Source of the DNA: a phage
Length of the DNA: 64,000 nucleotides
Reading direction: 5' to 3' (one strand)
Sequence record: PZ445489.1
The position numbers and the translations under genes are program-made. Each line of letters starts with the position of its first letter. Position 1 is the stretch's first letter. Below, in pieces: positions 9,875-41,093 of this stretch. Under the pieces are notes generated by a model. The model was not told the DNA's origin. It ran no database searches and was given only the letters and a program-made list of their open reading frames with translations.

Positions 9875-10117
9875 TTACGATTCCTTGAGCAGAGAAGAAA
9901 GTTCAGCATATACTTTATCTAACTCAAACCCTATGCGAAGGGATACGTTAGTCCTCCGTTGTTTAAGTAACCATTCGGATATGTTAGGGATGCCAGCTAA
10001 TCTGTGTGGTACCACCCTACATAGCTTTTCCGAAGTATCATAAACAGGAACTTTACGTTCTTTTACTGGAAACTTCCTTGTTTCCCATTTTTTATTCTTC
10101 ACTGTCATTTCTAGCAC
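9875..10117 (-). CDS. hypothetical protein (80 aa)
   Basis: ORF overlapping end of upstream 955-aa gene. Confidence 0.4.
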   Translation of the reverse strand: MLEMTVKNKKWETRKFPVKERKVPVYDTSEKLCRVVPHRLAGIPNISEWLLKQRRTNVSLRIGFELDKVYAELSSLLKES

Positions 10118-12959
10118 CTAGCTCTGACATTGCTTCATCATGCATATGTTTTTCCTCGTCAGTCATGAACTTATAAGGAATTGGCATACACTCGATTTTA
10201 CAATAGGTTCTGTACCAGTCTACAATATTTTCAGTGTTCATATCCTTACCAATACCCATCATACCAAGATACATTCTTGCATATTTTGGGTTAGCACTCT
10301 GACCTGTTTTAAGGAAGAAATCTTTCTTCTTACCTTTCAGAGCTTCTATGAATGGTTTGATAGTGACATTTGAACACTTCTTAATATCTTCCCAGAACAT
10401 CTCGTGCATTTTATGGAAGAATGCCGCTCGATCATTCGGTTTATCCTTGATATACTGTTCAACATGCTCAACTGTTACATCTTTAATAGACTCAAGATGA
10501 TAATAGCGAACAAGAAGTAGTTTAGCTTCATACGCATCCGCATGACGTGGAGCACAATAATCCGGAGTTGAATGTAGAATAGCTTTGATTCGCTCTTCTG
10601 TGTATTCTTTACCAGCACCTTCAATAGTTCCCCAGCTTTCGCTGAAAATATCAATAGTTGCACCCTGATCAAGCAAGTAATAACGTAAAGTACTAGTATA
10701 GTTCCTAGATTCCAGCTCTCTGCGACGTGCGTATAATTGCTGTGCTAACTCCGGCCAACCTTCATCAATATTATATTGCTCAGAACCTGCAGAGAACCCA
10801 CTAGTGGATTTATCAATAAAATAATAGATATTCTGAGCACCACGGTCGCGCCTGATTGCTTGGAAACGCATGTTTGGCGCTTGGTTACTAGTTCTAGTGA
10901 TAACGAATACGTTATCAAAATAGTTGAAGTCAACACCACTCGTTACGGATGGACTACATAATAAGCAATCAATTTGTTGATCAATTAGCTCATTAGTTGT
11001 GTAATCCAGAATACGTCTAATATCTACATCAGATGTAGAGTTTGAGTGGATTTCCTTAACTAACGCACCCGTATTACGACGCAATGCCATGCCCTTCTCA
11101 TTCAGTTCATCTGGACCACAGTCAGATACTAGGATAGATTTCTCACCCATCTCTAGAGAAGTCTGAAGTGCAACCCAAATACTGGACTCATCAGGGAACT
11201 CATAAGCATGAGCTTTTGACAGCATTTTACGGTGATGATTGTAAAATGCAACCGGTTTATCAAACTCAATCAAAGAACCATATGCTTCAATTGTTTCTGC
11301 ACTAATATCCCCATCAGATAATATAATGATTTTTGCAGTTGCAAGAATGTCCCGAAGAACCTGAATACATTCACGACGTTGTTTAACAACCGGGGCGAAT
11401 AATAGGTCATTCATTACAGCGTCACATTCATCGATAAAGATTGCATCAATTTGACCAATAAAACTCTTGAACTTATGCAAAGAGTGAATAGTTGTGGACA
11501 TACGGTCAATAGCACCACGCTTAAAATTAAGCATATCTACAGACTTATCATATTGTCCTGCACTAAATTTCTTAGCATTTGAAGATACCAGTGCTCGAGT
11601 ATTGGTAATTGCTAAGAAATTACCTTTAATAACTCCTGAATCCAGCCAACGCACAACCGCTGTAGTTTTACCTGTACCTAGACTTGCTTTTACAAAAGTC
11701 ATATAACCTTCTGGTGGCACGGTATTTAATTTCAAGAAGTTATCAGTTTCTAGAGAATTAGTTTCTAGCTTTTTAAGTGGAATACCTTTTAAAACATCTG
11801 GTATATCACGTTTAGAATTATTAACAAACGCTTTCAGAGCCTGTTTACGACCGTTGTTAAAATAATCTTGAATATTACGACTATTATCTTTAGTTGCAAT
11901 ATACTCAGATAAAGCTGGGCGGATCTCCTTCTCTAGCCAGCCAAAATCTACACCATCCTCTAGTGCTCGGTGATAGAGTTTAGGAATAATACGTAGATAT
12001 ACACCATCCTCAGCTTCTTCTAATTCGCTGATAGTTTCCTCTACTTTATCAGAGGCAGCTTTTTTACCTTTAATTTGGTCGAGTAAAGAATAGAACTCCT
12101 CCTTAAACTCACCTCTAGTTGTTTCATAGTCAACTAGATTATTAGGTAAATTTACTTTTGAGCCTTTAACAAATACCAGACGTGAAGTACCCTCCGCTTT
12201 AAACGGATCTACTATACCATCAGTAAATAAAGGATCTGCAAAGTAATGGAGCTGTACGGAAGAGTAATAAGCTAAGTCGGCAATATCAAAGCCATACTTT
12301 TGTCTACTACTTTCGTTGATAGATGTAAATAAGAACTTGATTTGACCCTGAGTTACTTTAACATTAGATTCTAGTATTAAGTGCATTCGGATACCTGGTT
12401 TTAGCCCAGCCGAAGATGACGCATGAGCGATAAACCCTGCATCAAGAGGAAACATATCCTCACTAATACTATTTAACATCCTAATAATATGTCGAGCCAT
12501 GCCAACAAGATCAAACTTGTTACAACCTCCTGTATCTACAATACCATCCACATCCATTGCGATTATATGACTTGGATTAGATACATTAAAGTTGCCCTTC
12601 TTACGTCGCACATTATTTTTAGGTGCAAGACATCGACCTCGTACCGCAACGATATGAGGGTCAGACGTTAAACGTCTCATAAGAGGAAGCATTTCTACTA
12701 GGGTTTGAGGATCAACTTCATCAATTACATCAAACTTGAAGGGCATTGAAGCTGGTTTACCTTCAGGATGCTTTGAGGAAAATCTTTTAGCAAAAAGATA
12801 ATCTTCTGCTTTAACTTCTCGCCAATTGCCTGTGGCTAAATCGCGATGAAATCCTGCATGACCTTGTAGGATTGAAAACACAACAATACTCCTGTATTGG
12901 AAATGAAATAAGTTTTCTTTAGGACTATTCAGAAAGAATAGAACAACTGTTACTGTCAA
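10092..12959 (-). CDS. putative replication origin-binding / helicase-like P-loop NTPase (955 aa)
   Basis: Walker A LGTGKTTAV and Walker B-like IFIDECD in central region; large size; position in replication module. Confidence 0.55.
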   Translation of the reverse strand: MTVTVVLFFLNSPKENLFHFQYRSIVVFSILQGHAGFHRDLATGNWREVKAEDYLFAKRFSSKHPEGKPASMPFKFDVIDEVDPQTLVEMLPLMRRLTSDPHIVAVRGRCLAPKNNVRRKKGNFNVSNPSHIIAMDVDGIVDTGGCNKFDLVGMARHIIRMLNSISEDMFPLDAGFIAHASSSAGLKPGIRMHLILESNVKVTQGQIKFLFTSINESSRQKYGFDIADLAYYSSVQLHYFADPLFTDGIVDPFKAEGTSRLVFVKGSKVNLPNNLVDYETTRGEFKEEFYSLLDQIKGKKAASDKVEETISELEEAEDGVYLRIIPKLYHRALEDGVDFGWLEKEIRPALSEYIATKDNSRNIQDYFNNGRKQALKAFVNNSKRDIPDVLKGIPLKKLETNSLETDNFLKLNTVPPEGYMTFVKASLGTGKTTAVVRWLDSGVIKGNFLAITNTRALVSSNAKKFSAGQYDKSVDMLNFKRGAIDRMSTTIHSLHKFKSFIGQIDAIFIDECDAVMNDLLFAPVVKQRRECIQVLRDILATAKIIILSDGDISAETIEAYGSLIEFDKPVAFYNHHRKMLSKAHAYEFPDESSIWVALQTSLEMGEKSILVSDCGPDELNEKGMALRRNTGALVKEIHSNSTSDVDIRRILDYTTNELIDQQIDCLLCSPSVTSGVDFNYFDNVFVITRTSNQAPNMRFQAIRRDRGAQNIYYFIDKSTSGFSAGSEQYNIDEGWPELAQQLYARRRELESRNYTSTLRYYLLDQGATIDIFSESWGTIEGAGKEYTEERIKAILHSTPDYCAPRHADAYEAKLLLVRYYHLESIKDVTVEHVEQYIKDKPNDRAAFFHKMHEMFWEDIKKCSNVTIKPFIEALKGKKKDFFLKTGQSANPKYARMYLGMMGIGKDMNTENIVDWYRTYCKIECMPIPYKFMTDEEKHMHDEAMSELGARNDSEE

Positions 12960-13380
12960 TTTCTCAACAAATTAATCGCAAATACTGAAGGGGGGTGGCA
13001 ACTTCCCCTTTCACGCTACACTGCCGCTTCACTATACCGCACAAATCCTTGAGGATGGCCGCTAAGCCAGATTTGCTCACCTAATGCTTCATGTACTAGC
13101 TCATACTAGATGTAGTATACCTTACGTCATCACTTCTCAGAGTTTTTCACTCTTCCCGTCTCACTTCACAACCACCTCACACTAGGTTGCTTCGAGGCCT
13201 TACCAGGGTTCCTACGGGATGTAGATCGCTAAGTATTCTATTAACTATTTGTTTAAAAACTAACACGTAACAGTTAAAACAACCCTTAATGGGGCAGCCT
13301 AACTGTTCCGTATCGCGGATTGTAAACAAGAAAAATTAGCAAAATCAATTTTTACTAATGTCTCTCAATTCAATATAAAT

Positions 13381-13409
13381 ATTATATCAAGATTTTGGGC
13401 ATCATGCAA
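13381..13409 (-). promoter_or_regulatory. early-type sigma70 promoter (minus strand) upstream of long 5' leader of the 955-aa gene
   Basis: minus strand TTGCAT-17-TATAAT + ATTTATATTGAATTGAGAG leader. Confidence 0.55.
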
Positions 13410-13485
13410 GTAAAATTTTCCGGATGGTGCTATCATTGGTCTTGAGTACGGATAAAACCGAGCCAAAATGACTCGGTTATGTGGA

Positions 13486-13683
13486 TTAGACACTTAAAAT
13501 ACTTCTAATCTCTTCTATATACTTATCTACTTTTTTAGCATCTACTTTATTTAGTTTTCCTATATCAAAACTAGGATCAGTAAACATTCTAGCTATCTCT
13601 ATCTCTAGAGACTTACTAATTTTCCCTGTAGTATTCCACTTAGAAATCTTACCTTTTATTTTCCAAAATTCCTTATTCATCAT
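13486..13683 (-). CDS. hypothetical protein (65 aa)
   Basis: ORF only. Confidence 0.4.
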   Translation of the reverse strand: MMNKEFWKIKGKISKWNTTGKISKSLEIEIARMFTDPSFDIGKLNKVDAKKVDKYIEEIRSILSV

Positions 13684-14065
13684 TTAATCCCGGAACATAT
13701 ATCCCAACACGGTTTAATTGTTCTTTAGCTTCTTTGAGAATATCTGGAGTGTACTCCCAAATATCATCTTCCACCTGTAAAAGATGGGGCGAACAACCAT
13801 CATCAGGCACACGACATATGGCAAAACCACGTGGATGGAACAAAGAGAAATTTAGTGCAACAATTAAACCCATAGCAGACAATTCATTCCAATCCAATTC
13901 CCATTCCCCAGCGTAGCCTGATAGGCAAACACCAATACAGGGATCGTCTATTTGCTGCTCCGGAAAAGTGAAGGAGACTTGTCTTACTCCCAACCAACGT
14001 TGTAGCAGCTTCTCCGCACGTTTCACCAAACTAGGGTCAATCTGACGCCAATATACTTGTTCCAT
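13673..14065 (-). CDS. hypothetical protein, paralog of adjacent 14075..14503 product
   Basis: Shared motifs with neighbour: PCIG, W.EL.EMGL..ALN..LF.P, G(Y/I).PGL. Confidence 0.55.
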   Translation of the reverse strand: MEQVYWRQIDPSLVKRAEKLLQRWLGVRQVSFTFPEQQIDDPCIGVCLSGYAGEWELDWNELSAMGLIVALNFSLFHPRGFAICRVPDDGCSPHLLQVEDDIWEYTPDILKEAKEQLNRVGIYVPGLNDE

Positions 14066-14074
14066 TCTGCCTCC

Positions 14075-14503
14075 TTAAGCAGTTAAACCTGGGATCATAT
14101 ACCCGAAACGTCGAAGTTTCTGAATCCCCTCATTTACTTCTTCCGGTGAGTAAGACCAACCATAACGTTCATTAACCTGAAAACCAGGAGATTCACTAGT
14201 TTTATAGTTAACAACGAGGCGATGCTTAGCAGGCATAAACAGCTTATAGTTTAACGCAAAAACTAAGCCCATTTCATCTAACTCTTTCCAGCCAACAATT
14301 TCTTCAAGACCATCTTCTACCTGCACAATTAAACCAATACAGGGGGCCTCATCAATATCATCTTTAAAAGCAAAGGAGATTTCATTATTCTCACACCATA
14401 TTTTCAGAGCATTAATAGCCTCATTGTACAGGTTGGCTGGAAGAGTATGCCAAAAATTAACCAATATTGGGTTAGCTTCTTTAGAGAATACATTATTGAA
14501 CAT
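14075..14503 (-). CDS. hypothetical protein, paralog of adjacent 13673..14065 product
   Basis: Tandem duplicate, see above. Confidence 0.55.
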   Translation of the reverse strand: MFNNVFSKEANPILVNFWHTLPANLYNEAINALKIWCENNEISFAFKDDIDEAPCIGLIVQVEDGLEEIVGWKELDEMGLVFALNYKLFMPAKHRLVVNYKTSESPGFQVNERYGWSYSPEEVNEGIQKLRRFGYMIPGLTA

Positions 14504-32356: not shown

Positions 32357-32431
32357 CGGGGTGTAGTCTAAGGGAGAGGCAGGAGTCTTCTAAATTCCTT
32401 TATGCAGGTTCGAATCCTGTCACCTCGGCCA
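32357..32431 (+). tRNA. tRNA-Arg (anticodon UCU)
   Basis: Acceptor CGGGGTG/CACCTCG, anticodon stem GGAGU/AUUCC loop CUUCUAA, T-arm GCAGG-TTCGAAT-CCTGT, encoded CCA. Confidence 0.7.
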
Positions 32432-32465
32432 ATTTTATTAACTGTAACTAAAACAAAGGAAATAT

Positions 32466-33413
32466 ATGTTTAATACTAAAAATATGAAAGAACTGACTTC
32501 TGAGCAGAAAGTAATTCGTACTATTAAACGTTGGGGTATTGGTGCTGTAGTTGGTTTAGCAGGCTTGATTCTAGCCTTTAATTCATATACTATTGTTTCT
32601 GATGGTACGGTTAAAACCCAAACATTTCTGGGTAAAGTAGATCCTAACCCAGTATTACCAGGTTTCCATCTTGTAAACCCATTTGCATCTTTCGACACTT
32701 TTAGTACAAAAGATATTGCTGTAAAATTAGATAAACTTCAGGTTCCTAGCCAGGATAAGTTTAAATCCACTGTTGACCTGACTGTTATGTTGCAGTTTGA
32801 TGGTTCTAAGGCACCAATTAACCGTATTAACGCAGGTACTCAGGATCAAGCGTTAGACAAATATGTAACTGAAAAATTACTGTCTACTATTCGTGAGTTT
32901 GGTAAGTCTGTACCTAAAGCACAAGATTTGTTTGATGCTAAAATTCAGGCTCAATTGCAAACTGCAATTCAACAGGAAGTTGAAGAGTATGCACGCCCAT
33001 ATGGTTACACAGTTAAGCAGGTATTCCTTCAGGATATTACTTTGCCACCGGTAATCATGGAACAGGTACAGAATACCAAAGTTCGTGAAGAACAGGTTAA
33101 TGCTGCTAAAGCTGAATTAGCTCGTGTTGAACAGGAAGCACAGCAAAAAGTTAAACAAGCAGAAGCAGATCGTGAAGCTCGCAACAACCAAGCTATCGCT
33201 AATGAACGTGACGCAGATGCTAAACTGTACGCAGCTAAGAAAGAAGCTGAAGCTAACGCCGCACTGCAACGTACCATTACTCCTGAGATGATTCGTTGGA
33301 AACAACTGGAAGTCGAAATGATTCGTGCTCAGAAATATCAAGGTGGTGTACCACAGACTGTGGTAGGTACTGGCTACGATGGTCAAATGATCATGGATAT
33401 GCGTAATAAATAA
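32466..33413 (+). CDS. SPFH/band-7 (prohibitin/HflK-like) membrane protein
   Basis: N-terminal TM segment, SPFH-like core, C-terminal Ala/Glu/Gln-rich coiled coil. Confidence 0.6.
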   Translation: MFNTKNMKELTSEQKVIRTIKRWGIGAVVGLAGLILAFNSYTIVSDGTVKTQTFLGKVDPNPVLPGFHLVNPFASFDTFSTKDIAVKLDKLQVPSQDKFKSTVDLTVMLQFDGSKAPINRINAGTQDQALDKYVTEKLLSTIREFGKSVPKAQDLFDAKIQAQLQTAIQQEVEEYARPYGYTVKQVFLQDITLPPVIMEQVQNTKVREEQVNAAKAELARVEQEAQQKVKQAEADREARNNQAIANERDADAKLYAAKKEAEANAALQRTITPEMIRWKQLEVEMIRAQKYQGGVPQTVVGTGYDGQMIMDMRNK

Positions 33414-33437
33414 TATCCGCATGTAACATCTGAAGTA

Positions 33438-33476
33438 AGCCCTGCGTTCCCTGGAGAGCGCAGGGCTTTTCTTTTA
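33438..33476 (+). terminator. rho-independent terminator
   Basis: AGCCCTGCG...CGCAGGGCT hairpin + TTTTCTTTT. Confidence 0.6.
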
Positions 33477-33486
33477 TCTTAAATAC

Positions 33487-33526
33487 AGAAAAGCCCCTAA
33501 GTCTTTCGACTAGGGGCTTTATTGTT
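33487..33526. terminator. bidirectional rho-independent terminator
   Basis: AAAAGCCCCTAAGTCTTTCGACTAGGGGCTTTATTGTTT: GC stem flanked by A-run and T-run. Confidence 0.6.
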
Positions 33527-33737
33527 TGGTTCTTCAGAACCACACTCTCGGTGTACAGCAACCACCCATACGGGAGGCCAATCTTGACTGAAAATCTACT
33601 CTAGGGGGCAGGATAAGAGTAGGCTTAAAGGCAAAGGGATTGAACGCCGGTATTTGTGTAAACATTGCTGGAGAGCAACAACGTGCTACAGGCATTGGGC
33701 AGCACGAAACAGGTTTTCTGCAACACATAATTTCTCC

Positions 33738-34154
33738 TTAGGAGTTATTACCACCATTTTGAGCTTTTGCAACTTGGCTTTGGCAGAAGCTATTAAACTT
33801 ACCCATAAGTGATACAAGCTGCTTCCCATCCTCTGTCTTTGCGAAGTCTTCGAAAAGGGCTAGTACTGCCTGTCCTTCCGCAGAAACCTGCGGTTGTTGG
33901 GTTTGCTGCTGAACTTGCTGCTGCGGCATCTGTTGTTGCATTTGTTGAGGCATTTGCGACTGCCCGCTCATTTGCTGCATCATTTGCATAGGACTCACAC
34001 TTCCAGGGTTTTGCTGGAGTTGTTGTTGCATCTGTTGCGCTTCTGCTAAACGCTGTTGCAATTGTTGTAAGTAGGGGTTATCCAGACCCGGAATGGGCTG
34101 CTGGGAGCCCATACTTTGATTAAGTCCGTTATTTACAAAACCATATTTACTCAT
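33738..34154 (-). CDS. glutamine-rich low-complexity protein (138 aa)
   Basis: ORF; long Q/M/P runs. Confidence 0.5.
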   Translation of the reverse strand: MSKYGFVNNGLNQSMGSQQPIPGLDNPYLQQLQQRLAEAQQMQQQLQQNPGSVSPMQMMQQMSGQSQMPQQMQQQMPQQQVQQQTQQPQVSAEGQAVLALFEDFAKTEDGKQLVSLMGKFNSFCQSQVAKAQNGGNNS

Positions 34155-34175
34155 AATGGGCTCCTCCCCTTAATA

Positions 34176-35158
34176 TTAAGCCGGCAGTTTAGCCTGCAGA
34201 CCAGCCAGAGTCTGAGTGATAGCACCAAGACTTACAGCGATTTGATTAATTACCTGACCGTTAGCACCGTTACCCGCAGCGATTGCTTCACGTAGGCGAC
34301 ATGCATCTAACTCATCCTGAATACGAGCAGTAGTTACACCAGCGATAGCAGTCTGAAGTTCACAGCAACATTCAGCGATCTGACGTTCCAGAGAGTTCTG
34401 GTTAGCACACATCTGAGCCTGAACAGCGGCAAACTGGTTATTAGTTTGTAAAGTCTGCTGGAAAGCGATCTGTGCAGAATCAAACTTATCTTGTGCACGA
34501 GCTATCTGATTAGCTGCGAAAGATTGATCAATCTGGCGAGAAAGATCGAACTGACCCTGAATAACGTTGCGAGTTTCCTGACAGATCTGATTAGACAGAT
34601 TAGCACCTGTACCATAGATCGTAGTTAGTACAGACTGAGTATCACGGCTCTGGTTTTGGGATGTCTGGCTAAACCCATTGTTAACTGCGCTTAAAACAGC
34701 TCCAGTACCCTGGTTAGCTTCTGTACGAGTAGTGTTAATAGCTGCTAGAATACTAGCGGTATCTTGGTTCTGAAGTACTGCATCAACTGCGGTACCATCA
34801 CCAACTACACCACGTCCACCGAATCCACCGAAACCACCGAATCCGCCTGTTAATAGAGCACCGATTAGGATAGCTCCGAATAGTCCCATACCTTCACCAC
34901 CGAAAGCACCTGCGTTTGCTGGGTAACCACCCAGTAGGCCAGGGAAGCCACTAGTAAATACGTTTACTGGTTCTTGCATTTTATGTTTTCCATATTTATG
35001 ACAATGTTCATCGTCATCTTCTTCATCATCGTGTTCACGATGTTTTTCTTCGTAGGCTCTGACCTTCTCCCACTTTTTCTTATCTGATTCCTCGTGACGG
35101 TGCAGTTCTGCTGCAACGCTAGCGACGGTCTCAGGACTCTTAGCTACTTCTTCTGTCA
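34176..35158 (-). CDS. glycine-zipper membrane protein with His/acidic N-terminus and Q/N/A-rich C-terminal region
   Basis: AGGAGGTG RBS then ATG at 35158-35156; GLFGAILIGALLTGGFGGFGGFGG segment. Confidence 0.5.
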
Positions 35159-35365
35159 TTTTTGACACCTCCTAGTATATAGAAAATGTGTGTCTCTTTG
35201 ATCACTCATCCATAACATATACTTTACACTACCCCAGCGAAAATGTCAAGGGGTCTTTAAAAATTGCCCCTGAATTTTTAGTGGGGTCACAAATTTTGGT
35301 CCTCACCACTTATCTGCTATCCTTAAGTGCCCTATGATTTTCCTCTAAAAAGTTAAAAAATTTGA

Positions 35366-35394
35366 TTGCTTGAATGCTAAATTCTCTGTATAAT
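35366..35394 (+). promoter_or_regulatory. early-type promoter
   Basis: AAAAATTTGATTGCTT-17-TATAAT + ATATCTATAAATTTGAAAGAGG. Confidence 0.55.
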
Positions 35395-35424
35395 ATATCT
35401 ATAAATTTGAAAGAGGAACCAAAT

Positions 35425-35943
35425 ATGAATGTTGATGAGCTAACACAGCACCTCTTATCTAGAGGATTTGATACAGATAAATATCATTGCTGGTTAAGTC
35501 CGGAAGGATGGCTAACAGTCCCGTTGTATGACTTCTCTGGGATGTTGAGGGGCTATCAAACTTATAATCCTTCTGCTCCAAAAGGTCATGGTAAGTGCCC
35601 CTTTGAAGCTAAATACTTTACTTATTCTACTACCCAGTGTGTATGGGGACTAGAAACTCTCAATGGAGATGAAAAAGTAGTATTGATTGCTGAATCTGTA
35701 TTTAAGGCAGTTGCGTTACATAATGCTGGTTATCCAGCCCTAGCAATGTTGGGTTCTTCTCCAGGAAAAGCGTTATTAAAGCAACTGAAATTACTACCTT
35801 TTAAATTGGTAGCTGTCGGAGATAATGATCCTGCGGGTGAAAAATTTGCTAGAAAATTAAACGGCTTTGTTTCTCCCGTAGATGTGGATGAGATGTCTAC
35901 CGAAAACTTGAAAAATTTTCTTGCTATGAAGCTAAATTTCTAA
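35425..35943 (+). CDS. standalone Toprim-domain protein
   Basis: VVLIAESVFKAV (Toprim Glu) and LVAVGDNDPAGEKFA (DxD) motifs; ATG 35425 with GAAAGAGGAA RBS. Confidence 0.55.
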   Translation: MNVDELTQHLLSRGFDTDKYHCWLSPEGWLTVPLYDFSGMLRGYQTYNPSAPKGHGKCPFEAKYFTYSTTQCVWGLETLNGDEKVVLIAESVFKAVALHNAGYPALAMLGSSPGKALLKQLKLLPFKLVAVGDNDPAGEKFARKLNGFVSPVDVDEMSTENLKNFLAMKLNF

Positions 35944-35964
35944 TATAATATATCTTATAAATTC

Positions 35965-36053
35965 GGAAGAATAGCATAACGGTATTGCAGCAGATTGCTA
36001 ATCTGTCGGTTTGAAATATAGCCTTGTGGGTTCGATTCCCGCTTCTTCCGCCA
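35965..36053 (+). tRNA. tRNA-Ser (GCU), type II
   Basis: Acceptor GGAAGAA/TTCTTCC, anticodon loop TTGCTAA, long variable arm, T-arm GTGGG-TTCGATT-CCCGC, CCA. Confidence 0.75.
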
Positions 36054-36059
36054 AATTCT

Positions 36060-36137
36060 GGTTCTCAAGCTCATATGGTATGAGCACCCGGCTCATAACC
36101 GGAAGGTACGTAGGTTCGAATCCTCGGGGAGCCACCA
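36060..36137 (+). tRNA. tRNA-like, anticodon CAU (Met/Ile2), imperfect T stem
   Basis: Acceptor GGTTCTC/GGGAGCC (2 GU), D stem GCTC/GAGC, anticodon loop CTCATAA, T loop TTCGAAT with 2 mismatches in stem. Confidence 0.45.
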
Positions 36138-36156
36138 AATTAAATAGAGGTCACAA

Positions 36157-36345
36157 ATGGATCTATATATAGTTTATGTTGTGTTTATCCAAGATAGAGA
36201 ATACCCGGATGAATATAAAAAAGGATATAGGTTAGCCAGAGCTACCTCTGAAGCCCAAGCTATGGATAAAGTGGCAGATTATATGATTACGGTAGAAAAC
36301 ATACACTATATCGACTACCTTGAAGCCTCAAAAGTAATTGACTAA
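36157..36345 (+). CDS. hypothetical protein (62 aa)
   Basis: ORF. Confidence 0.4.
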   Translation: MDLYIVYVVFIQDREYPDEYKKGYRLARATSEAQAMDKVADYMITVENIHYIDYLEASKVID

Positions 36346-36354
36346 GGAGACTAT

Positions 36355-36540
36355 ATGTCTAAGTTTCAAGAACTCAAGCAAGAGCTAGAAGAATGTGCCT
36401 GCCCTGAGTGTAGAGGAATTGGTGAAAGTTCTGATGCAGAAGCAGGAGATACTTTTTGCAATATCTGGGTTTGCCCAAATTGCAATGGTACAGGTATTAA
36501 TCCTAACTGTGGTATTTCCCTAGATATTGAACGAGGATAA
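36355..36540 (+). CDS. small zinc-ribbon protein (61 aa)
   Basis: CACPEC...CPNCNG. Confidence 0.45.
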   Translation: MSKFQELKQELEECACPECRGIGESSDAEAGDTFCNIWVCPNCNGTGINPNCGISLDIERG

Positions 36541-36641
36541 TACCTGTAAAACTAAAAGATTATTATATTGGTTGGTTTGTGGGACTAGTAGTAGGATTTT
36601 CACTAGGCTATAATATGTATCAACTAATAAACTGATTACAC

Positions 36642-36718
36642 GGGGGTGTAATCGAATTGGCATAGGTACTGGACTTAAAATTCAGGTTTTGTGGGTTCGA
36701 ATCCCACCACCCCTACCA
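36642..36718 (+). tRNA. tRNA-like, anticodon UAA (Leu-type anticodon on short-variable-arm scaffold), atypical D arm
   Basis: Acceptor GGGGGTG/CACCCCT, anticodon stem CTGGA/TTCAG loop CTTAAAA, T-arm GTGGG-TTCGAAT-CCCAC, disc A, CCA. Confidence 0.5.
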
Positions 36719-36893
36719 AACTAAGGAAATAAGATGTATAGACATCCACCTCCGCCAACACGTCGTTCTAGAGAAGTTATCCTCATGGAATTGACTAAAA
36801 ACTTCAAGGCAACTCTTGAAGATAGAGATCTAGGTACAGATGAAGACGTTGATTTCATTTGTAAACTATTAAAAATGAAGCTGGAGAAACATC

Positions 36894-37100
36894 ATGGCTA
36901 ACCGTGAAATTACTATGCAACGAATCATGACTAAAGGCATGATAGCCGAGGCAGGTATTGAACAAGAAGTAAAAGGCTATTACGAACAGATTAAGACTAT
37001 TATAGACTCTGCTAAAAACACCGGAGAAAAAGAACACGGTGCAGCAATTATGGCTATAACTCTTATTAGCCTAGACTTAGCTGAAGAATCTGGAGTTTAG
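36894..37100 (+). CDS. hypothetical protein (68 aa)
   Basis: ORF. Confidence 0.4.
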   Translation: MANREITMQRIMTKGMIAEAGIEQEVKGYYEQIKTIIDSAKNTGEKEHGAAIMAITLISLDLAEESGV

Positions 37101-37130
37101 CTCCTCCAAACAGAATTTTTAAAAATGTAC

Positions 37131-37160
37131 TTGCCTTTTGCTTTAAATTTCTGATATAAT
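37131..37160 (+). promoter_or_regulatory. early-type promoter
   Basis: TTGCCT-18-TATAAT. Confidence 0.5.
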
Positions 37161-37190
37161 AGTTGTATAAATTGATGAAGGAGTTAACGA

Positions 37191-37466
37191 ATGCAAAATC
37201 GTGTTGTAGCAACTGGTATTGAAAGTGCAATCTGCAAATCCTGGGAAGACTGGGAAGGTGAGATTGAGTGGCTCTATCTCTATAACGTAGATCTTCTACC
37301 GGAGGTTAAAGCTAAATGTATTGAAGCTGGCATGGCTCCAGATGCAAAAGCTGATATTGATATTTCAATGTCTGAACTTAAAGGTCGTGTAATTACTGTT
37401 AGTGATGAGGGCGAAGAAGTTTTCGAACTTCCGTTCTCCTTAACTGTCACTCCTAAGTTCGACTAA
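37191..37466 (+). CDS. hypothetical protein (91 aa)
   Basis: ORF with promoter and GAAGGAG RBS. Confidence 0.45.
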   Translation: MQNRVVATGIESAICKSWEDWEGEIEWLYLYNVDLLPEVKAKCIEAGMAPDAKADIDISMSELKGRVITVSDEGEEVFELPFSLTVTPKFD

Positions 37467-37503
37467 CTAATACAGCACTGAGCAAGTTCTTTAAAATTTG
37501 ACT

Positions 37504-37531
37504 TGCTCAGTGCCTTAAAACTTGGTATAAT
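37504..37531 (+). promoter_or_regulatory. early-type promoter driving tRNA sub-cluster
   Basis: TTGCTC-16-TATAAT. Confidence 0.5.
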
Positions 37532-37596
37532 ATTTACCTAATTTGGAAACATATTTAAAAGTGTTTAAATGAGAATTTTTGAATACTTCTAAATAT

Positions 37597-37687
37597 GTTG
37601 GATTAGTATCGTAGAGGTAGCGAAGCAGACTGTAAATCTGCCGACTCGGAAGGGTCTCGGGTGGTTCGACTCCATCATCCAACACCA
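37597..37687 (+). tRNA. tRNA-Tyr (GUA), type II
   Basis: Acceptor GTTGGAT/ATCCAAC, anticodon stem GCAGA/TCTGC loop CTGTAAA, long variable arm, T-arm GGTGG-TTCGACT-CCATC, CCA. Confidence 0.75.
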
Positions 37688-37694
37688 AATTTAA

Positions 37695-37771
37695 GTCCTG
37701 TTAGACAAACTGGTAAAGTCACTACCCTTTCAAGGTAGGATTTGCGGGTTCGATCCCCGCACAGGACGCCA
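37695..37771 (+). tRNA. tRNA-Glu (UUC)
   Basis: Acceptor GTCCTGT/ACAGGAC, anticodon stem CTACC/GGTAG loop CTTTCAA, T-arm GCGGG-TTCGATC-CCCGC, CCA. Confidence 0.75.
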
Positions 37772-37779
37772 ATTTCTGC

Positions 37780-37856
37780 ATTCCTAGAGTGTTACTGGAC
37801 AGCATGTCGGTCTCCAAAACCGTACGGTCTAGGTTCGAGTCCTAGTAGGTTTGCCA
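37780..37856 (+). tRNA. tRNA-like, anticodon CCA (Trp), acceptor stem with mismatches
   Basis: Anticodon loop CTCCAAA, T-arm CTAGG-TTCGAGT-CCTAG, 3' GCCA; acceptor pairing imperfect. Confidence 0.5.
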
Positions 37857-37862
37857 AAATTT

Positions 37863-37937
37863 GCACCTTTAGCTGAGATGGATTAGCGCTTGCCTGAAGA
37901 GCTTGAGAGGTTCGTTCGATACGAACAGGGTGCACCA
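37863..37937 (+). tRNA. tRNA-like, anticodon uncertain (possibly GAA, Phe)
   Basis: Acceptor GCACCTT/AGGGTGC, T-arm GTTCG-TTCGATA-CGAAC, CCA; anticodon stem poorly paired. Confidence 0.45.
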
Positions 37938-37954
37938 AATTGAAGGAGCTGCTG

Positions 37955-38227
37955 ATGCATCCTGAAAACTTCTTTATTTACTGCGCTGATAAGTCGCTAA
38001 AACGTAGAATTAACAAAGTCTACCATTATCGTGCTAGTCAACAGCCTTATGTATATGCTTTTGACGGTGATCACATTCCATTAGAACAATTATCTTGTGA
38101 TTACATGATATTAAAGAACTTTGACGAGACGAAGATCTCAAGCGTTCACAATCGGCAGAATCCATTAACGTGGAAATATAAGAAGAAAAAGAAAGGCATC
38201 AAATTCTTAAAAAATATAGTTGCTTAG
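37955..38227 (+). CDS. hypothetical protein (90 aa)
   Basis: ATG 37955 after AAGGAG. Confidence 0.45.
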   Translation: MHPENFFIYCADKSLKRRINKVYHYRASQQPYVYAFDGDHIPLEQLSCDYMILKNFDETKISSVHNRQNPLTWKYKKKKKGIKFLKNIVA

Positions 38228-38248
38228 TTTCCAAAAGTTCTGTATAAT
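38220..38248 (+). promoter_or_regulatory. early-type promoter
   Basis: TTGCTT-17-TATAAT. Confidence 0.55.
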
Positions 38249-38296
38249 AATTACATAAATTGAACTGGAGAAGCAACATGACAGAACAAGATAAAC

Positions 38297-38372
38297 CGAC
38301 CGTTGGCTGAATGGCTTAGGCGAAGGATTGCAAATCCTTTTTATGTGAGTTCAAATCTCATGCGGTCGTCCA
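38297..38372 (+). tRNA. tRNA-Cys (GCA)
   Basis: Acceptor CGACCGT/GCGGTCG, anticodon stem AAGGA/TCCTT loop TTGCAAA, T-arm GTGAG-TTCAAAT-CTCAT, CCA. Confidence 0.7.
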
Positions 38373-38379
38373 AATTTTA

Positions 38380-38462
38380 GGGTCGTTAGCCAAGCGGTTT
38401 GGCGGTGGACTGTTAATCCATGTCGAAAGACAACGTAGGTTCGAATCCTACACGGCCCGCCA
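38380..38462 (+). tRNA. tRNA-Asn (GUU) with extended variable region
   Basis: Acceptor GGGTCGT/ACGGCCC, anticodon loop CTGTTAA, T-arm GTAGG-TTCGAAT-CCTAC, CCA. Confidence 0.6.
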
Positions 38463-38564
38463 AATTCTGTGTAGAGTTAAGTAAACCGGTAGCCAACCAG
38501 CTATCATTGCTGACATCGAATTCAGCCACAGATACCATTTTCATTAATAACTGAGGAAACAAGC

Positions 38565-38750
38565 ATGTCCAAGAATGTAATTGCGCAGCTAGAAGTTCAT
38601 CGTGATAGCACTATCAACAATATTGAAGTTGAAAAGAAATACATCGAAGAACTTAAACATGATATACTAGTGAGTCTCAACCGTCTTAATGTACGAAAAG
38701 AGTTTCTTAAAGAACTTAATGCAGCTATTGAAAAACTCAAAGCTGAGTAA
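38565..38750 (+). CDS. hypothetical protein (61 aa)
   Basis: ORF with GAGGAAACAAGC RBS. Confidence 0.4.
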   Translation: MSKNVIAQLEVHRDSTINNIEVEKKYIEELKHDILVSLNRLNVRKEFLKELNAAIEKLKAE

Positions 38751-38759
38751 ATGAATTAT

Positions 38760-38836
38760 GCGACCGGGGCTGGCTTGGTAATGGTACTCCCCTGTCACGG
38801 GAGAGAATGTGGGTTCAAATCCCATCGGTCGCGCCA
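38760..38836 (+). tRNA. tRNA-Asp (GUC)
   Basis: Acceptor GCGACCG/CGGTCGC, anticodon stem CTCCC/GGGAG loop CTGTCAC, T-arm GTGGG-TTCAAAT-CCCAT, CCA. Confidence 0.8.
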
Positions 38837-38862
38837 AATTAATTTAGTATGAGAAATATGCT

Positions 38863-39210
38863 ATGATTAATGCTAAAGAAGAATTGTTACTTGCCCTAAA
38901 GAATACTAATTCTGAAGTTAAGTGTATTAAGATAGAATTCGGTTATTATGGAGACAAAGAAGTTTGGGTATTACCCGTAGGTTATACAGAAAAAGATATT
39001 GAAGATTTTCTAAATAATCTAGACTTTAAATATGATTCTGGTTTCGGTGGACAATTGCTTTATGGTAACGTATGGTTTACTGATGGAACTTGGTTAGAAC
39101 GTGGTGAATATGATGGTTCTGAATGGTGGGAATATAAGACTACACCAGCAATTCCAGAGGAATGCCGAACAATTAATGGTGAAGTAGATCGTACTTTACT
39201 ATTAAATTAA
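38863..39210 (+). CDS. hypothetical protein (115 aa)
   Basis: ORF. Confidence 0.5.
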   Translation: MINAKEELLLALKNTNSEVKCIKIEFGYYGDKEVWVLPVGYTEKDIEDFLNNLDFKYDSGFGGQLLYGNVWFTDGTWLERGEYDGSEWWEYKTTPAIPEECRTINGEVDRTLLLN

Positions 39211-39450
39211 CAAAATCTCAGTGCAGAACACGGAGCTAGCAATTCGGAAGTGCTGACTCATGATAAGCTGCCTATGTACTTGCGAAGCGGTCGTGTCCAA
39301 GACTCGGACTCTTGCACTGAAAACAATCAAACATTCTAGCGTGGTTGATGGGGAAACCAGCTTGGCTAGGGCAGAAGCTCGTTCGATTCGAGTGAAAGAA
39401 TGGTTCTCGTAAGTCCGCACAAGTGATAGCAGGTTCGAGTCCTGTCTAGA

Positions 39451-39642
39451 ATGACATATTCTGGAGGTTTTGTGAATTACAAAGAATTAGATCTTTTAGC
39501 AAATAAATTCACAGAGCTATCTGATAACGTTGTATCAAAGGACTCCAACATAGATAATTTTATTACTGAATATCGTGATGGTATAATCTCTAAACAAGAG
39601 TTGTTAGATAAAACGTATAAATATTTAAAGGGGTTCAGCTAA
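39451..39642 (+). CDS. hypothetical protein (63 aa)
   Basis: ORF. Confidence 0.4.
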   Translation: MTYSGGFVNYKELDLLANKFTELSDNVVSKDSNIDNFITEYRDGIISKQELLDKTYKYLKGFS

Positions 39643-39953
39643 ACGGTTAAGCACTGTCCTACTTCGGACAGAGGGAGTAACACGTAGTCTCCCAAACTCC
39701 CCCAAATTTAGATTTCTGCTTCCTAGAGAACGGACTTCTGAATAAACAAGGCGATGAAGTTTCCGGCCGGTTCTAGTCGCTAAAGTCCCTCTAACGGGGC
39801 GTAAGTAAATGAAAGTTTACTTATTATGTAGGTTCCGATAGATCGGCGGGTCTATTCTGGCATTTAAGAGAGGTCTCGCAAACTTCTTTGTCAGCCGTGG
39901 GGTTGGTAGCCTCCAGGTGGCCTACACAATAAGTAAATTTATTAAAAATTCAT

Positions 39954-39982
39954 TTGCTATTCTGCTATATTATCTGTATAAT
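39954..39982 (+). promoter_or_regulatory. early-type promoter
   Basis: TTGCTA-17-TATAAT. Confidence 0.55.
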
Positions 39983-40014
39983 ATATTTTATAAAGTGAAG
40001 AGAAGGAAAGCAAA

Positions 40015-40173
40015 ATGAAACACAAGATAGCTCAAGTTTTTATGACATTATGGTGTATGCCAATAGCTATAACAGCATTTAATCTAGATACTTTTACTAT
40101 AGAAGAAAAATGTATCGGATTAGTTAGCGGCTTTAGTATGCTGGGCTTATCTTTGTTGTGGTTGAAGAAATAA
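40015..40173 (+). CDS. small hydrophobic protein (52 aa, not in ORF track)
   Basis: ATG after GAGAAGGAAAG RBS and promoter; two hydrophobic segments. Confidence 0.35.
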   Translation: MKHKIAQVFMTLWCMPIAITAFNLDTFTIEEKCIGLVSGFSMLGLSLLWLKK

Positions 40174-40177
40174 TATT

Positions 40178-40255
40178 CTCCGTGTAGCTCAGTTTGGCCA
40201 GAGCGTTTCGTTTGGGGCGATAGGGTCGGGGGTTCAAATCCTCCCACGGAGACCA
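40178..40255 (+). tRNA. tRNA-Pro (UGG)
   Basis: Acceptor CTCCGTG/CACGGAG, D stem GCTC/GAGC, anticodon loop TTTGGGG, T-arm GGGGG-TTCAAAT-CCTCC, CCA. Confidence 0.7.
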
Positions 40256-40261
40256 AACAAT

Positions 40262-40339
40262 TGCGGGTTAGATCTCTGGTAGAGATCGCTAGTCTCATAA
40301 GCTAGAAAGAGGTAGGTTCGATTCCTGCACCCGCTTCCA
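40262..40339 (+). tRNA. tRNA with anticodon CAU (Met/fMet/Ile2)
   Basis: Anticodon stem CTAGT/GCTAG loop CTCATAA, T-arm GTAGG-TTCGATT-CCTGC, CCA. Confidence 0.6.
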
Positions 40340-40359
40340 CTTTAATAGAGGATTTCGAA

Positions 40360-40527
40360 ATGAAAGTATTTCGATTAGTAGTAAGTGACAAACGTTTAGG
40401 TAATAATACCTCAAGATCCTTACTTGCACATTATGGTAAAAATTGGGATGAAGTAATGGCAGAGTTTAATACTAATCACCCTTACTTGAAAGTTCACTCT
40501 ATTAAAGAGGTATATAATGGTTACTAA
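40360..40527 (+). CDS. small hypothetical protein (55 aa, not in ORF track)
   Basis: ATG 40360 between tRNAs. Confidence 0.3.
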   Translation: MKVFRLVVSDKRLGNNTSRSLLAHYGKNWDEVMAEFNTNHPYLKVHSIKEVYNGY

Positions 40528-40528
40528 T

Positions 40529-40606
40529 AGATCGCTAGCTCAACTGGATAAGAGTAGCGGACCTTTAATCCGTCAGTTCTGGGTTCGAATCCCAGGCGAT
40601 CTACCA
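40529..40606 (+). tRNA. tRNA-Lys (UUU), C at position 33
   Basis: Acceptor AGATCGC/GCGATCT, anticodon stem GCGGA/TCCGT loop CCTTTAA, T-arm CTGGG-TTCGAAT-CCCAG, CCA. Confidence 0.6.
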
Positions 40607-40610
40607 AATT

Positions 40611-40684: not shown

Positions 40685-40703
40685 ATTAACTCAAAATAAG
40701 GAA

Positions 40704-41072: not shown

Positions 41073-41093
41073 TGCTTAATTTCTTGTTATAAT
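41065..41093 (+). promoter_or_regulatory. early-type promoter
   Basis: TTGCTT-17-TATAAT. Confidence 0.55.

What the first reader, a model, noticed from the sequence alone, without database searches (positions are those of the whole stretch)
12960..13409. ~420-nt untranslated leader upstream of the origin-binding-protein gene
The nearest promoter (minus strand, 13381-13409) lies ~420 nt upstream of the 955-aa gene start; the intervening sequence has no ORF and contains a GC-rich hairpin (GAAGGGG...CCCCTTTC ~12984-13010). It could be a regulatory leader, a small RNA or a replication origin adjacent to its binding protein.
Basis: seen in the sequence. Interest (0 to 1): 0.45.

Follow-up and report, generated by a model that had tools for sequence, protein, structure and literature searches.

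The report
Large structured RNA before T5 helicase gene
The long "empty" stretch in front of the replication helicase gene of this T5-like phage encodes a large, intricately folded RNA that is conserved in shape across T5 relatives of enteric bacteria, is in no RNA family database, and has no known function.

Summary
The window is a T5-like phage (Demerecviridae). On the minus strand, a canonical T5 early promoter (13409-13381) is followed by about 490 nt with no conserved ORF. The true start of the "origin-binding protein" gene (the T5 D2 helicase) is GTG 12881, not TTG 12959.

The leader is a large structured element:
- a 36-57 bp stalk (P1);
- a closing helix (P2);
- a 206-225 nt multi-helix core carrying an invariant UUAGCG hairpin loop;

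Eight sequence types share this architecture although most are not alignable by BLAST. They come from T5/Salmonella/E. coli, Klebsiella, Pectobacterium, Providencia and Proteus phages and one metagenome contig. Covariation is strong: 94.6-98.8% of cells paired, 12-25 pairs with compensatory changes, slid controls 33-53%. There are 41 G·U cells, so only the transcribed-sense strand folds.

No Rfam family matches, no paper describing it was found, and no copy was found outside Demerecviridae.

Function is inferred, not shown. I favour a cis-acting leader and processing module of the helicase mRNA. The rivals are an excised stable ncRNA and an origin-related primer or folded single-strand signal. 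"Origin-binding" rests only on helicase-domain homology.

The parts
13450..13478 (-). Intrinsic terminator of the upstream operon (stem CCGAGUC/GGCUCGG followed by a U-run)
   Evidence: Inverted repeat I11. The same hairpin is annotated as a terminator in HASG4, T5 and BF23.
13381..13409 (-). Canonical T5 early sigma-70 promoter: TTGCAT, 17-nt spacer, TGaTATAAT. The TSS is inferred near 13374.
   Evidence: Sequence. Annotated in T5. Same layout as P-N25, P-N26 and P-K28a. An equivalent promoter is present in all 8 leader types.
13319..13374 (-). P0: 5'-terminal hairpin of the transcript. It is variable between types and interrupted by an insertion of about 90 nt in NR01-like phages.
   Evidence: MFE folds; alignment; BLAST layout of L015/L033.
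13294..13311 (-). Most conserved primary-sequence block, ACGGAACAGUUAGGCUGC, containing a 3-bp hairpin CAG-UUAGG-CUG
   Evidence: Conserved in types A, B, E, K, M and N. The A-U pair becomes G-C in type E (helix 1).
13233..13275 (-). P1 stalk, 5' strand (AU-rich)
   Evidence: Inverted repeats I1 and I7. Duplex of 36-57 bp, -30 to -45 kcal/mol, in every type. z = -2.2 to -7.5 against shuffles. The same pair is G-C, G·U or A-U in window, T5 and beppo.
12945..12985 (-). P1 stalk, 3' strand
   Evidence: As for the 5' strand (helix 2).
13016..13224 (-). Core enclosed by P2 (CUACA 13224-13220 / UGUAG 13020-13016). The length is 206-216 nt in types A, B, E, K, M and N, and about 221-225 nt in the Providencia and Proteus types.
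   Evidence: lengths. P2 variants are CUACA/UGUAG, CUGCG/CGCAG, CUGUA/UACAG, CUGUG/CACAG and CUAGAA/UUCUAG. For Providencia and Proteus, P2 was identified by eye in the sequences.
13155..13218 (-). P3 domain: P3 CCCGU/ACGGG; P3a 13207-13198; P3c 13196-94/13162-60; P3b CAACC/GGUUG 13189-85/13173-69
   Evidence: Covariance model R2. 100% paired, with compensatory changes in 12 of 16 pairs. Confirmed on the structure-agnostic alignment A8.
13139..13153 (-). P4 hairpin AGAG-UGAAAAA-CUCU, followed by the conserved single strand GAGAAGUG (13137-13130)
   Evidence: AGAG/CUCU, GGAG/CUCC, GGGG/CCCU, CCG/CGG. Fixed spacing to the UUAGCGG motif.
13042..13075 (-). P7: outer stem CAAAUCU/AGGAUUUG enclosing the hairpin GGC-UUAGCG-GCC (loop at 13065-13060) and a 7-10 nt 3' bulge
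   Evidence: All 7 outer pairs covary and are 100% paired. The UUAGCGG motif is present once upstream of the helicase gene in every enterobacterial type.
12988..13010 (-).
   Evidence: 4 of 6 pairs show compensatory changes. Fixed spacing from UUAGCGG.
12925..12941 (-). P10 small hairpin CUAUUC-UUUCU-GAAUAG between the stalk and the ribosome-binding site. There is no U-run, so it is not a terminator.
   Evidence: helix 11, weakly supported.
12879..12893 (-). Shine-Dalgarno AGGAG (12893-12889) and the true GTG start (12881-12879) of the helicase gene
   Evidence: Sequence. Matches the CDS starts annotated in HASG4 and T5.
10092..12881 (-). 929-aa SF2 helicase gene annotated 'replication origin binding protein' (T5.108; the D2 bipolar helicase)
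   Evidence: Pfam PF02399 at aa 394-533 only, and PHROG 3712. The same domain position is described for T5 D2 in PMC3632103.

Best explanation
The stretch is the DNA for a large, conserved, structured RNA module that forms the 5' leader of the D2 helicase ('origin-binding protein') mRNA.

Transcript layout. Host RNA polymerase starts at a canonical T5 early promoter (13409-13381). The nascent RNA then forms:
- a 5' hairpin;
- a conserved block, ACGGAACAGUUAGGCUGC;
- a 36-57 bp AU-rich stalk (P1) that closes, through helix P2, a core of about 210 nt with at least 7 helices;
- an invariant UUAGCG hairpin loop (P7) in that core;
- a GUUGCCA-loop hairpin (P9) that sits on the stalk.

There is no terminator between the module and the helicase gene, and in the window no second promoter. 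Every helicase mRNA therefore carries it.

Proposed mechanism (inferred). The module acts in cis.
- The long double-stranded stalk is a processing and stability site of the RNase III type.
- The compact core is a binding platform for a replication protein. The most economical candidate is D2 itself, in the manner of the autogenous mRNA operators of T4 replication genes. Binding would set the amount or timing of helicase synthesis.

Shown: promoter, absence of coding, strand-specific conserved secondary structure, synteny, phyletic range.
Inferred: transcription through the element, processing at P1, protein binding, regulatory output.
For: Identity and conservation of the locus.
- The window is a T5-like phage. 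The leader plus promoter is found in 538 phage records.
- The same terminator-promoter-470 nt-CDS layout is annotated in T5 itself.
- The promoter matches characterised T5 early promoters. It is replaced by another consensus promoter where a homing endonuclease gene is inserted (bobsandoy).
- There is no conserved ORF.

Homology between sequence types.
- Types A and B share no BLAST similarity over about 290 nt, yet have the same P1, P2, P7 and core length.
- Covariance models built from type A alone recover types E, N, M, K and B only at the syntenic site. R2 gives E = 4e-24, 1e-13 and 4e-6. R1 gives 1e-8 to 0.09.

Covariation.
- A5: 16 pairs, 98.5% paired, 12 with changes on both sides.
- A7: 27 pairs, 98.8% paired, 15 with changes on both sides.
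- MAFFT-only alignment A8: 49 pairs, 94.6% paired, 25 with changes on both sides.
- Slid controls give 33-53% paired. On cells paired, double-sided changes and the covariation score, 0/500 shuffles reach the observed values; on pair types 0-3/500 do.
- There are 41 G·U cells against 6 non-standard cells, so only the sense strand folds.

Other signals.
- Stalk duplex z = -2.2 to -7.5.
- GC 0.49 against 0.39, and G is 30% on the sense strand.
- The RNA core type and the N-terminal half of the helicase are inherited as one mosaic block: aa 1-450 are 88-92% identical between window and T5, aa 551-900 are 100% identical.
Against: - No expression, processing or binding data exist, and none could be found in the literature.
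- Predicted pairing of the SD and start codon is inconsistent between types, with P(paired) from 0.01 to 0.99. No conserved expression platform is evident.
- The core lies about 70 nt from the SD.
- Proteus phages carry a consensus promoter between the element and the helicase gene (TTGACA-17-TATAAT at -65). The helicase can therefore be expressed without the leader in that lineage.
- The size and complexity exceed those of known autoregulatory operators.
- Co-inheritance of the core type with the helicase N-terminus may be plain linkage.
Confidence: 0.4

Rival explanations
1. An independent, stable non-coding RNA. The stalk works like the processing stalks that flank 16S and 23S rRNA. Cleavage releases a folded RNA of about 250-300 nt that acts in trans on an unknown phage or host target. 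The helicase mRNA is merely the downstream product of the same transcript.
For: - The long 36-57 bp closing duplex is far longer than riboswitch P1 stems.
- The core length is strictly conserved at 206-225 nt, with conserved loops and fixed spacings.
- The core is about 70 nt away from an apparently ordinary RBS.
- Proteus phages have a separate helicase promoter after the element.
- In Aeromonas TS3 and Vibrio D153, the long non-coding region ends in a terminator-like hairpin followed by a T-run about 75-85 nt before the helicase gene (sequences).
Against: - In 7 of 8 enterobacterial types there is no terminator or second promoter, so the element is always part of the helicase mRNA.
- No trans target is suggested by any test run here.
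- The most conserved block (13311-13294) lies outside the stalk and would be lost on excision.
- Homology of the Vibrio and Aeromonas regions to this RNA was not established.
Confidence: 0.25
2. A replication-origin element. One version is a structured primer transcript forming a persistent R-loop, as with ColE1 RNA II or T4 oriF/oriG. The other is the same-sense DNA strand folding when unwound into a priming signal like a single-strand origin. In both, the helicase encoded next door loads there.
For: - The location is at the genome centre. T5 59.0-59.5 kb of 121.75 kb is 48.5-48.9%. From my memory of Bourguignon et al. 1976, which could not be read here, the first-round origin mapped near the centre. 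PMC3632103 says only 'multiple internal origins'.
- The layout is a strong promoter followed by a G-rich transcript, with G 30% against C 19%.
- T5 encodes D10, described as a functional homologue of the T4 helicase UvsW (PMC12746101).
- The invariant loop UUAGCG contains TAGCG. This resembles the CS-6 TAGCGT loop of ssoA single-strand origins, which are also large, strand-specific folds (PMC4598088, PMC5703833).
- The core type travels with the N-terminal half of the helicase, as initiator specificity domains do in lambdoid phages (the lambdoid comparison is from my own knowledge).
Against: - There are no iterons or repeated binding sites.
- Recombitron editing of T5 showed a strand bias that its authors read as dominant unidirectional replication from one genome end, with no flip at the centre (PMC10055335).
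- The 'origin-binding' name rests on helicase-motif homology only.
- CS-6 is not matched exactly: position 6 is an invariant G that pairs. No RSB-like element was identified.
- Covariation with abundant G·U fits RNA best.
Confidence: 0.2
3. A non-functional spacer: a decayed gene, a mobile-element remnant with terminal inverted repeats, or short unannotated protein genes.
For: - Several GenBank records annotate small hypothetical ORFs here.
- The type A and type B 'cassettes' have sharp boundaries at inverted repeats.
- Homing endonuclease genes insert nearby.
Against: - No ORF is conserved between types.
- There are 25 pairs with compensatory changes and a constant core length across types that cannot be aligned by BLAST.
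- There is a single copy per genome and no copy outside Demerecviridae, unlike a mobile repeat.
Confidence: 0.03

Closest known systems
Autoregulatory mRNA leaders of phage replication genes (T4 gene 32 pseudoknot, T4 gene 43 operator; from general knowledge)
   Same: - A structured 5' leader of an early replication gene.
- The proposed logic is that the protein binds its own mRNA.
- The leader type and the N-terminal half of the protein are co-inherited.
   Different: - Those operators are tens of nucleotides long and overlap the RBS.
- This element is about 330-400 nt with at least 9 helices.
- It lies about 70 nt upstream of the SD.
- No binding has been shown.
RNase III processing stalks (rRNA operons; T7 early mRNA sites; from general knowledge)
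   Same: A long, imperfect duplex formed by sequences that flank a large folded RNA inside a longer transcript.
   Different: - Cleavage was not tested.
- The stalk is very AU-rich.
- The enclosed RNA is unrelated to rRNA.
ColE1 RNA II and T4 oriF/oriG R-loop origins (from general knowledge)
   Same: - A promoter followed by a structured, G-rich transcript of several hundred nucleotides, next to replication genes.
- The structure would be under selection, as it is in RNA II.
   Different: - No antisense partner, RNase H site or DNA unwinding element was identified.
- The transcript also has to serve as the helicase mRNA.
- Published T5 strand-bias data do not point to a central origin.
ssoA-type single-strand origins of rolling-circle plasmids (PMC5703833, PMC4598088)
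   Same: - A strand-specific fold of about 160-300 nt.
- A conserved TAGCG-containing hairpin loop.
   Different: - CS-6 is TAGCGT, whereas here the motif is UUAGCG with a closing G.
- No RSB was found.
- The host and replicon type are different.
- The element sits in a transcribed leader.
Large 'ornate' bacterial and phage-associated ncRNAs of unknown function (GOLLD, ROOL, OLE; PMC12286853)
   Same: - A large, multi-helix, strongly covarying RNA.
- Phage-borne.
- No known function.
   Different: - There is no sequence or structure match to any of them in Rfam 15.
- It is smaller.
- It is embedded in an mRNA leader rather than lying next to tRNA genes.

Membership tests
Any Rfam 15 family (4227 covariance models) | Score at or above the family gathering threshold, or at least a low E-value | tested here: not met
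   - Whole window at gathering thresholds: only tRNAs.
- Permissive scans of the leader in the window, Proteus, Providencia, T5 and My1 versions gave only noise (E >= 0.16) or terminator-type hits outside the element.
Riboswitch / cis-regulatory leader | Located in the 5' UTR of the regulated gene, on the same strand, and co-transcribed | tested here: met
   The promoter is upstream, there is no terminator, and no second promoter lies between the element and the gene in the window. The layout is syntenic in 8 types.
Riboswitch / cis-regulatory leader | Expression platform: conserved alternative pairing that sequesters the SD or start codon, or forms a terminator | tested here: inconclusive
   - Predicted P(paired) of the SD ranges from 0.01 to 0.99 between types.
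- The alternative hairpin I3 exists only in the T5 group.
- P10 has no U-run.
Riboswitch / cis-regulatory leader | Binds a ligand or protein and changes expression | not testable with these tools
   Needs in-line probing, EMSA or reporter fusions.
RNase III processing stalk | About 20 bp or more of largely continuous dsRNA formed by flanking sequences | tested here: met
   36-57 bp, -30 to -45 kcal/mol, z = -2.2 to -7.5 in 8 types.
RNase III processing stalk | RNase III-dependent cleavage in vivo or in vitro | not testable with these tools
   Needs a wild type against rnc comparison.
Iteron-type phage or plasmid origin | Three or more direct repeats (initiator sites) next to an AT-rich unwinding region | tested here: not met
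   Only 2-copy short repeats of chance quality in 12800-13700.
R-loop / primer-RNA origin (ColE1 RNA II, T4 oriF/G) | A promoter with a structured, G-rich transcript | tested here: met
   Promoter. G 30% against C 19% on the transcript strand. Structure.
R-loop / primer-RNA origin (ColE1 RNA II, T4 oriF/G) | A persistent RNA-DNA hybrid and an RNA-to-DNA transition at the site; replication starts there | not testable with these tools
   The literature gives only 'multiple origins' and a strand bias pointing to one genome end.
ssoA single-strand origin | CS-6 5'-TAGCGT-3' in a hairpin loop | tested here: inconclusive
   The loop is UUAGCG closed by C-G, so TAGCG is followed by an invariant G rather than T. 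The consensus is taken from PMC4598088.
ssoA single-strand origin | RSB 5'-TTATGCCGAGAAAATTT-3' paired in the fold | tested here: not met
   By eye, no RSB-like sequence inside the element. The only CCGAG-containing stretch is the upstream terminator.
Herpesvirus UL9-type origin-binding protein (the downstream gene) | Homology to the C-terminal origin-binding domain, not only to the helicase motifs | tested here: not met
   PF02399 matches only aa 394-533 to profile positions 51-197 of 820.

The most novel reading that the evidence does not exclude
The element is the long-sought primary replication origin of T5-like phages. It would work through a structured primer transcript or R-loop, with its displaced same-sense DNA strand folding into the same shape. 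The rapidly diversifying core would be matched to the N-terminal specificity half of the adjacent D2 helicase. This would be an RNA II-like initiation system in a large virulent phage.
Probability: 0.17. Interest if true: 0.85.

Novelty: new variant of a known kind. Interest (0 to 1): 0.66.

Why it matters
T5 is a classical model phage, and its relatives are widely used in phage therapy and biocontrol. This element, about 0.4 kb long, sits in hundreds of sequenced genomes either unannotated or mis-annotated as small hypothetical proteins.

It would be a new large RNA family with an unusually clear covariation signal, so it is a ready target for structural and functional work. It is physically tied to the least understood step of T5 biology, the start of DNA replication and the control of the D2 helicase.

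- If it is regulatory, it would be an unusually large RNA control element on a phage replication gene.
- If it is origin-related, it would locate the T5 origin.
- Its fast-evolving sequence on a fixed fold also raises the question of what drives that diversification.

Tried and rejected
- Rfam. Seven scans, at gathering thresholds and permissive, on five versions of the leader and on the Aeromonas TS3 non-coding region: no family.
- RNase P RNA. I followed up eye-level resemblances to its conserved regions (GGAGGAAAG.., ACAGAAC..GGCU). No RNase P model scored even at E <= 10, so I dropped it.
- tmRNA or tRNA-like. ARAGORN finds only the tRNA cluster.
- Retron msr-like reading (flanking inverted repeats plus UUAGCG). 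There is no reverse transcriptase, and the second UUAGCG near P2 is absent in type B.
- Box C/D or k-turn. The weak Rfam hits (E = 0.16) are noise, and the motif is not conserved in type E.
- BoxA-like antitermination sequence in the stalk. It is not conserved in types K and M.
- Attenuator reading of hairpin I3. It is present only in the T5 group and has a mismatch in beppo.
- Small ORFs. None is conserved.
- Iterons. None found.
- Homology in Vibrio and Aeromonas demerecviruses. Model R3 gives nothing significant. These phages do have 640-1600 nt non-coding regions at the same place, and VF16 against Brizo shows compensatory changes.
- Copies outside Demerecviridae. A three-part pattern scan of 185,579 genomes and of IMG/VR gave only chance hits that do not score with the model.
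- Metagenome scan with a helicase profile. It gave only 12 loci.
- Literature. Eight searches found no description of the element. Bourguignon 1976 is not held.
- MAFFT alignment of all eight types. It was too poor for RNAalifold, so models were seeded from type A only.

Full report
**What the window is.** The 1-kb region around the finding is 97-99% identical to Salmonella and E. coli T5-like phages such as NBSal005 and Spc35, and about 88% identical to others. The window carries 23-24 tRNA genes. Everything relevant lies on the minus strand.

**Checking the observation.**
- Read 5' to 3' on the minus strand, the upstream operon ends in an intrinsic terminator (13478-13450). It is also annotated in HASG4, T5 and BF23.
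- A promoter follows: TTGCAT (13409-13404), a 17-nt spacer, TG (13389-88) and TATAAT (13386-81).
- The consensus scan missed it because its -35 matches only 3 of 6. It is the promoter annotated in T5 at 58999-59073. Its A-rich upstream part, TTGC -35, extended -10 and 'TTGAGAG' start region match P-N25, P-N26 and P-K28a.
- The ORF caller's 955-aa start (TTG 12959) is not the gene start. AGGAG (12893-12889) followed by GTG (12881) gives the 929-aa product annotated in HASG4 and T5.
- The untranslated stretch is therefore about 490 nt.
- No other promoter-like site lies between 13319 and the gene.
- No ORF of at least 25 aa is conserved among ten versions of the leader.

**The stretch is conserved in an unusual way.**
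- 538 phage records match it. The match is modular.
- The first ~240 nt (promoter to about 13240) and the last ~75 nt are about 90% identical across Tequintavirus and Epseptimavirus.
- The ~290 nt between them fall into two types, A (window) and B (T5, BF23, beppo), with no BLAST similarity.
- More distant relatives also have a 470-760 nt non-coding gap behind a consensus promoter in front of the same gene. These are Klebsiella Sugarlandvirus (K), Pectobacterium My1 (M) and DU_PP_V (N), Providencia (P), the Proteus Stubb group (Q) and a metagenome contig (E).
- All carry one copy of the motif UUAGCGG at a similar position.

**Structure.** Folding each type gives the same architecture.
- P0 is a 5' hairpin.
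- A conserved block, ACGGAACAGUUAGGCUGC (13311-13294), follows.
- P1 is a long AU-rich stalk (13275-13233 with 12985-12945). It has 36-57 bp and -30 to -45 kcal/mol in every type, with z = -2.2 to -7.5 against dinucleotide shuffles.
- P2 closes a core whose length is 206-216 nt in types A, B, E, K, M and N. By eye, the core is about 221-225 nt in P and Q.
- The core contains P3, P3a, P3b, P3c, P4, P5 and P7. P7 is an outer stem holding the hairpin GGC-UUAGCG-GCC.
- Spacings are fixed: AGAAGUG, then 61-67 nt, CUUAGCGG, then 53-57 nt, GUUGCCA.

**Tests of homology and covariation.**
- Covariance models were built from type A sequences only.
- The 5'-domain model R2 finds type E at 4e-24, N at 1e-13, M at 4e-6 and K weakly at 0.34. 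It does not find B.
- The 3'-domain model R1 finds E at 1e-8, N at 0.002, and K, B and M at 0.013-0.09.
- Every one of these hits is at the syntenic site.
- On the model-fitted alignments, 98.5% (16 pairs, 12 with changes on both sides) and 98.8% (27 pairs, 15 with changes on both sides) of cells pair. Controls with the 3' partner slid by 1-3 columns give 35-53%.
- Such alignments lean towards the model, so I repeated the count on a plain MAFFT alignment of full-length elements (A x6, E, N, M). This gave 49 pairs, 94.6% paired, 25 pairs with changes on both sides, 33-48% slid, and 0/500 shuffles for four of the five measures (3/500 for pair types).
- P2 alone occurs as CUACA/UGUAG, CUGCG/CGCAG, CUGUA/UACAG, CUGUG/CACAG and CUAGAA/UUCUAG.
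- G·U pairs make up 41 cells against 6 non-standard cells. The complementary strand would carry C·A mismatches, so only the transcribed-sense strand folds.
- The core has GC 0.49 in a genome at 0.39 (top 1% of windows) and is 30% G on the sense strand. This is typical of structured RNA in AT-rich genomes.

**Range.**
- Model R3 (types A, E, N, B, K and M) finds P and Q only weakly, at the right place (E = 0.4-4). It finds nothing in Vibrio or Aeromonas demerecviruses.
- Those phages nevertheless have 640-1600 nt non-coding regions at the same position.
- VF16 against Brizo shows compensatory changes.
- Aeromonas TS3 has a perfect hairpin with a UUAGCG loop.
- Outside Demerecviridae I found nothing. 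Pattern hits in bacterial genomes and other viral contigs do not score with the model.
- No Rfam 15 family matches any version.
- Eight literature searches found no description.

**The gene downstream.**
- Pfam sees only PF02399, at aa 394-533 against profile positions 51-197 of 820, which are the helicase motifs.
- This is exactly the description of the T5 D2 bipolar helicase (PMC3632103).
- 'Origin-binding' is therefore an inherited name, not a finding.
- Between window and T5, the protein is 88-92% identical over aa 1-450 (66% in aa 351-400) but 100% identical over aa 551-900.
- The RNA core type (A or B) follows the N-terminal type.
- Core and N-terminal half thus form one mosaic block. 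This reflects either a cognate pair or simple linkage.

**How it most likely works.**
- Shown: a canonical early promoter, a non-coding stretch, a strand-specific and strongly covarying fold, an invariant position in front of the helicase gene, and co-transcription by layout.
- Inferred: the module acts as RNA in cis on the helicase mRNA.
- I favour a two-part mechanism (confidence 0.4). The long stalk would be a double-strand-specific processing and stability site. The core would be a binding platform, most simply for D2 itself, that tunes helicase synthesis.
- Against it: there is no conserved SD-sequestering or terminator platform. The core lies about 70 nt from the SD. Proteus phages have a proximal helicase promoter.

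**Rival 1 (0.25): the stalk releases a stable trans-acting RNA.**

**Rival 2 (0.2): an origin-related element, either an R-loop primer or a folded same-sense single strand.**
- For: the central map position, the G-rich transcript, a UvsW-like D10 helicase in T5, and a TAGCG loop reminiscent of ssoA CS-6.
- Against: no iterons, inexact CS-6, no RSB, and T5 editing strand bias that points to replication from one genome end.

**Rival 3 (0.03): a non-functional remnant.** Covariation and the constant core length argue strongly against it.

That the element is a selected, structured nucleic acid of the sense strand I hold at about 0.9. That it is RNA rather than DNA I hold at about 0.8.

**Novelty.** This is a new structured-RNA family of a known general kind (a large leader or non-coding RNA). 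It occurs in a classical model phage and in hundreds of its relatives, and its function is open.

Noticed in passing
window 13486-13683 (minus strand): A 65-aa ORF (PHROG 29527, unknown function) sits between the DUF7415 gene and the terminator. T5 has no counterpart: window 13675-13480 has no match in T5.
   Followed up: partly
window 13673-14065 and 14075-14503 (minus strand): Two tandem paralogous genes encode DUF7415 proteins (T5.107 and T5.106 homologues) directly upstream of the element. Their function is unknown. Small genes of similar size occupy this position in the Klebsiella and Pectobacterium relatives; in beppo and bobsandoy the pair carries one shared VOG label.
   Followed up: no
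L005 (Salmonella phage bobsandoy) 1160-1468: A homing endonuclease gene is inserted just upstream of the element. It replaces the native promoter with another consensus promoter (TTGCAA..TAGTATAAT). Homology resumes at the transcript start.
   Followed up: partly
L015, L033 (NR01-like phages); also SP1a, Gostya9, HildyBeyeler: An insertion of about 90-97 nt lies between the 5' hairpin P0 and the conserved block of the leader. Its nature is unknown.
   Followed up: no
L006 (Klebsiella phage vB_Kpn_3) 2501-2561, and about 80 other Klebsiella phages: The 60-nt promoter segment (window 13419-13359) recurs at 84-98% identity at another locus, after the D10-type helicase gene. T5-type early promoters are evidently conserved as whole ~60-nt cassettes.
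   Followed up: partly
window about 10105-10112, against T5 L002 7319-7837: T5 carries the HNH endonuclease gene hegI immediately after the helicase gene. The window phage lacks it. The last 29 aa of the helicase are only 59% identical at that junction.
   Followed up: partly
L090 (Vibrio phage PG07) 935-990 and 1048-1103: An exact direct repeat of about 56 nt occurs twice inside the non-coding region upstream of the helicase gene. It may be a duplicated RNA domain or a pair of binding sites.
   Followed up: no
L099 (Aeromonas phage TS3) 157-1746: A 1.6-kb stretch without annotated genes lies between the helicase gene and the small ORF that precedes nrdD on the opposite strand. It has no Rfam match. 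It contains a 10-bp hairpin with a UUAGCG loop and two further UUAGCGG motifs.
   Followed up: partly
L034 (Proteus phage Stubb) about 2380-2440: A second, shorter sequence resembling the P7 region (GGGGAACCCGAGCAC..GCCUUAGCCG) lies just before a consensus promoter at -65 from the helicase gene. The Proteus leader may contain a partial duplication.
   Followed up: no
window 32357-44467: A cluster of 23-24 tRNA genes on the plus strand, typical of T5-like phages.
   Followed up: no
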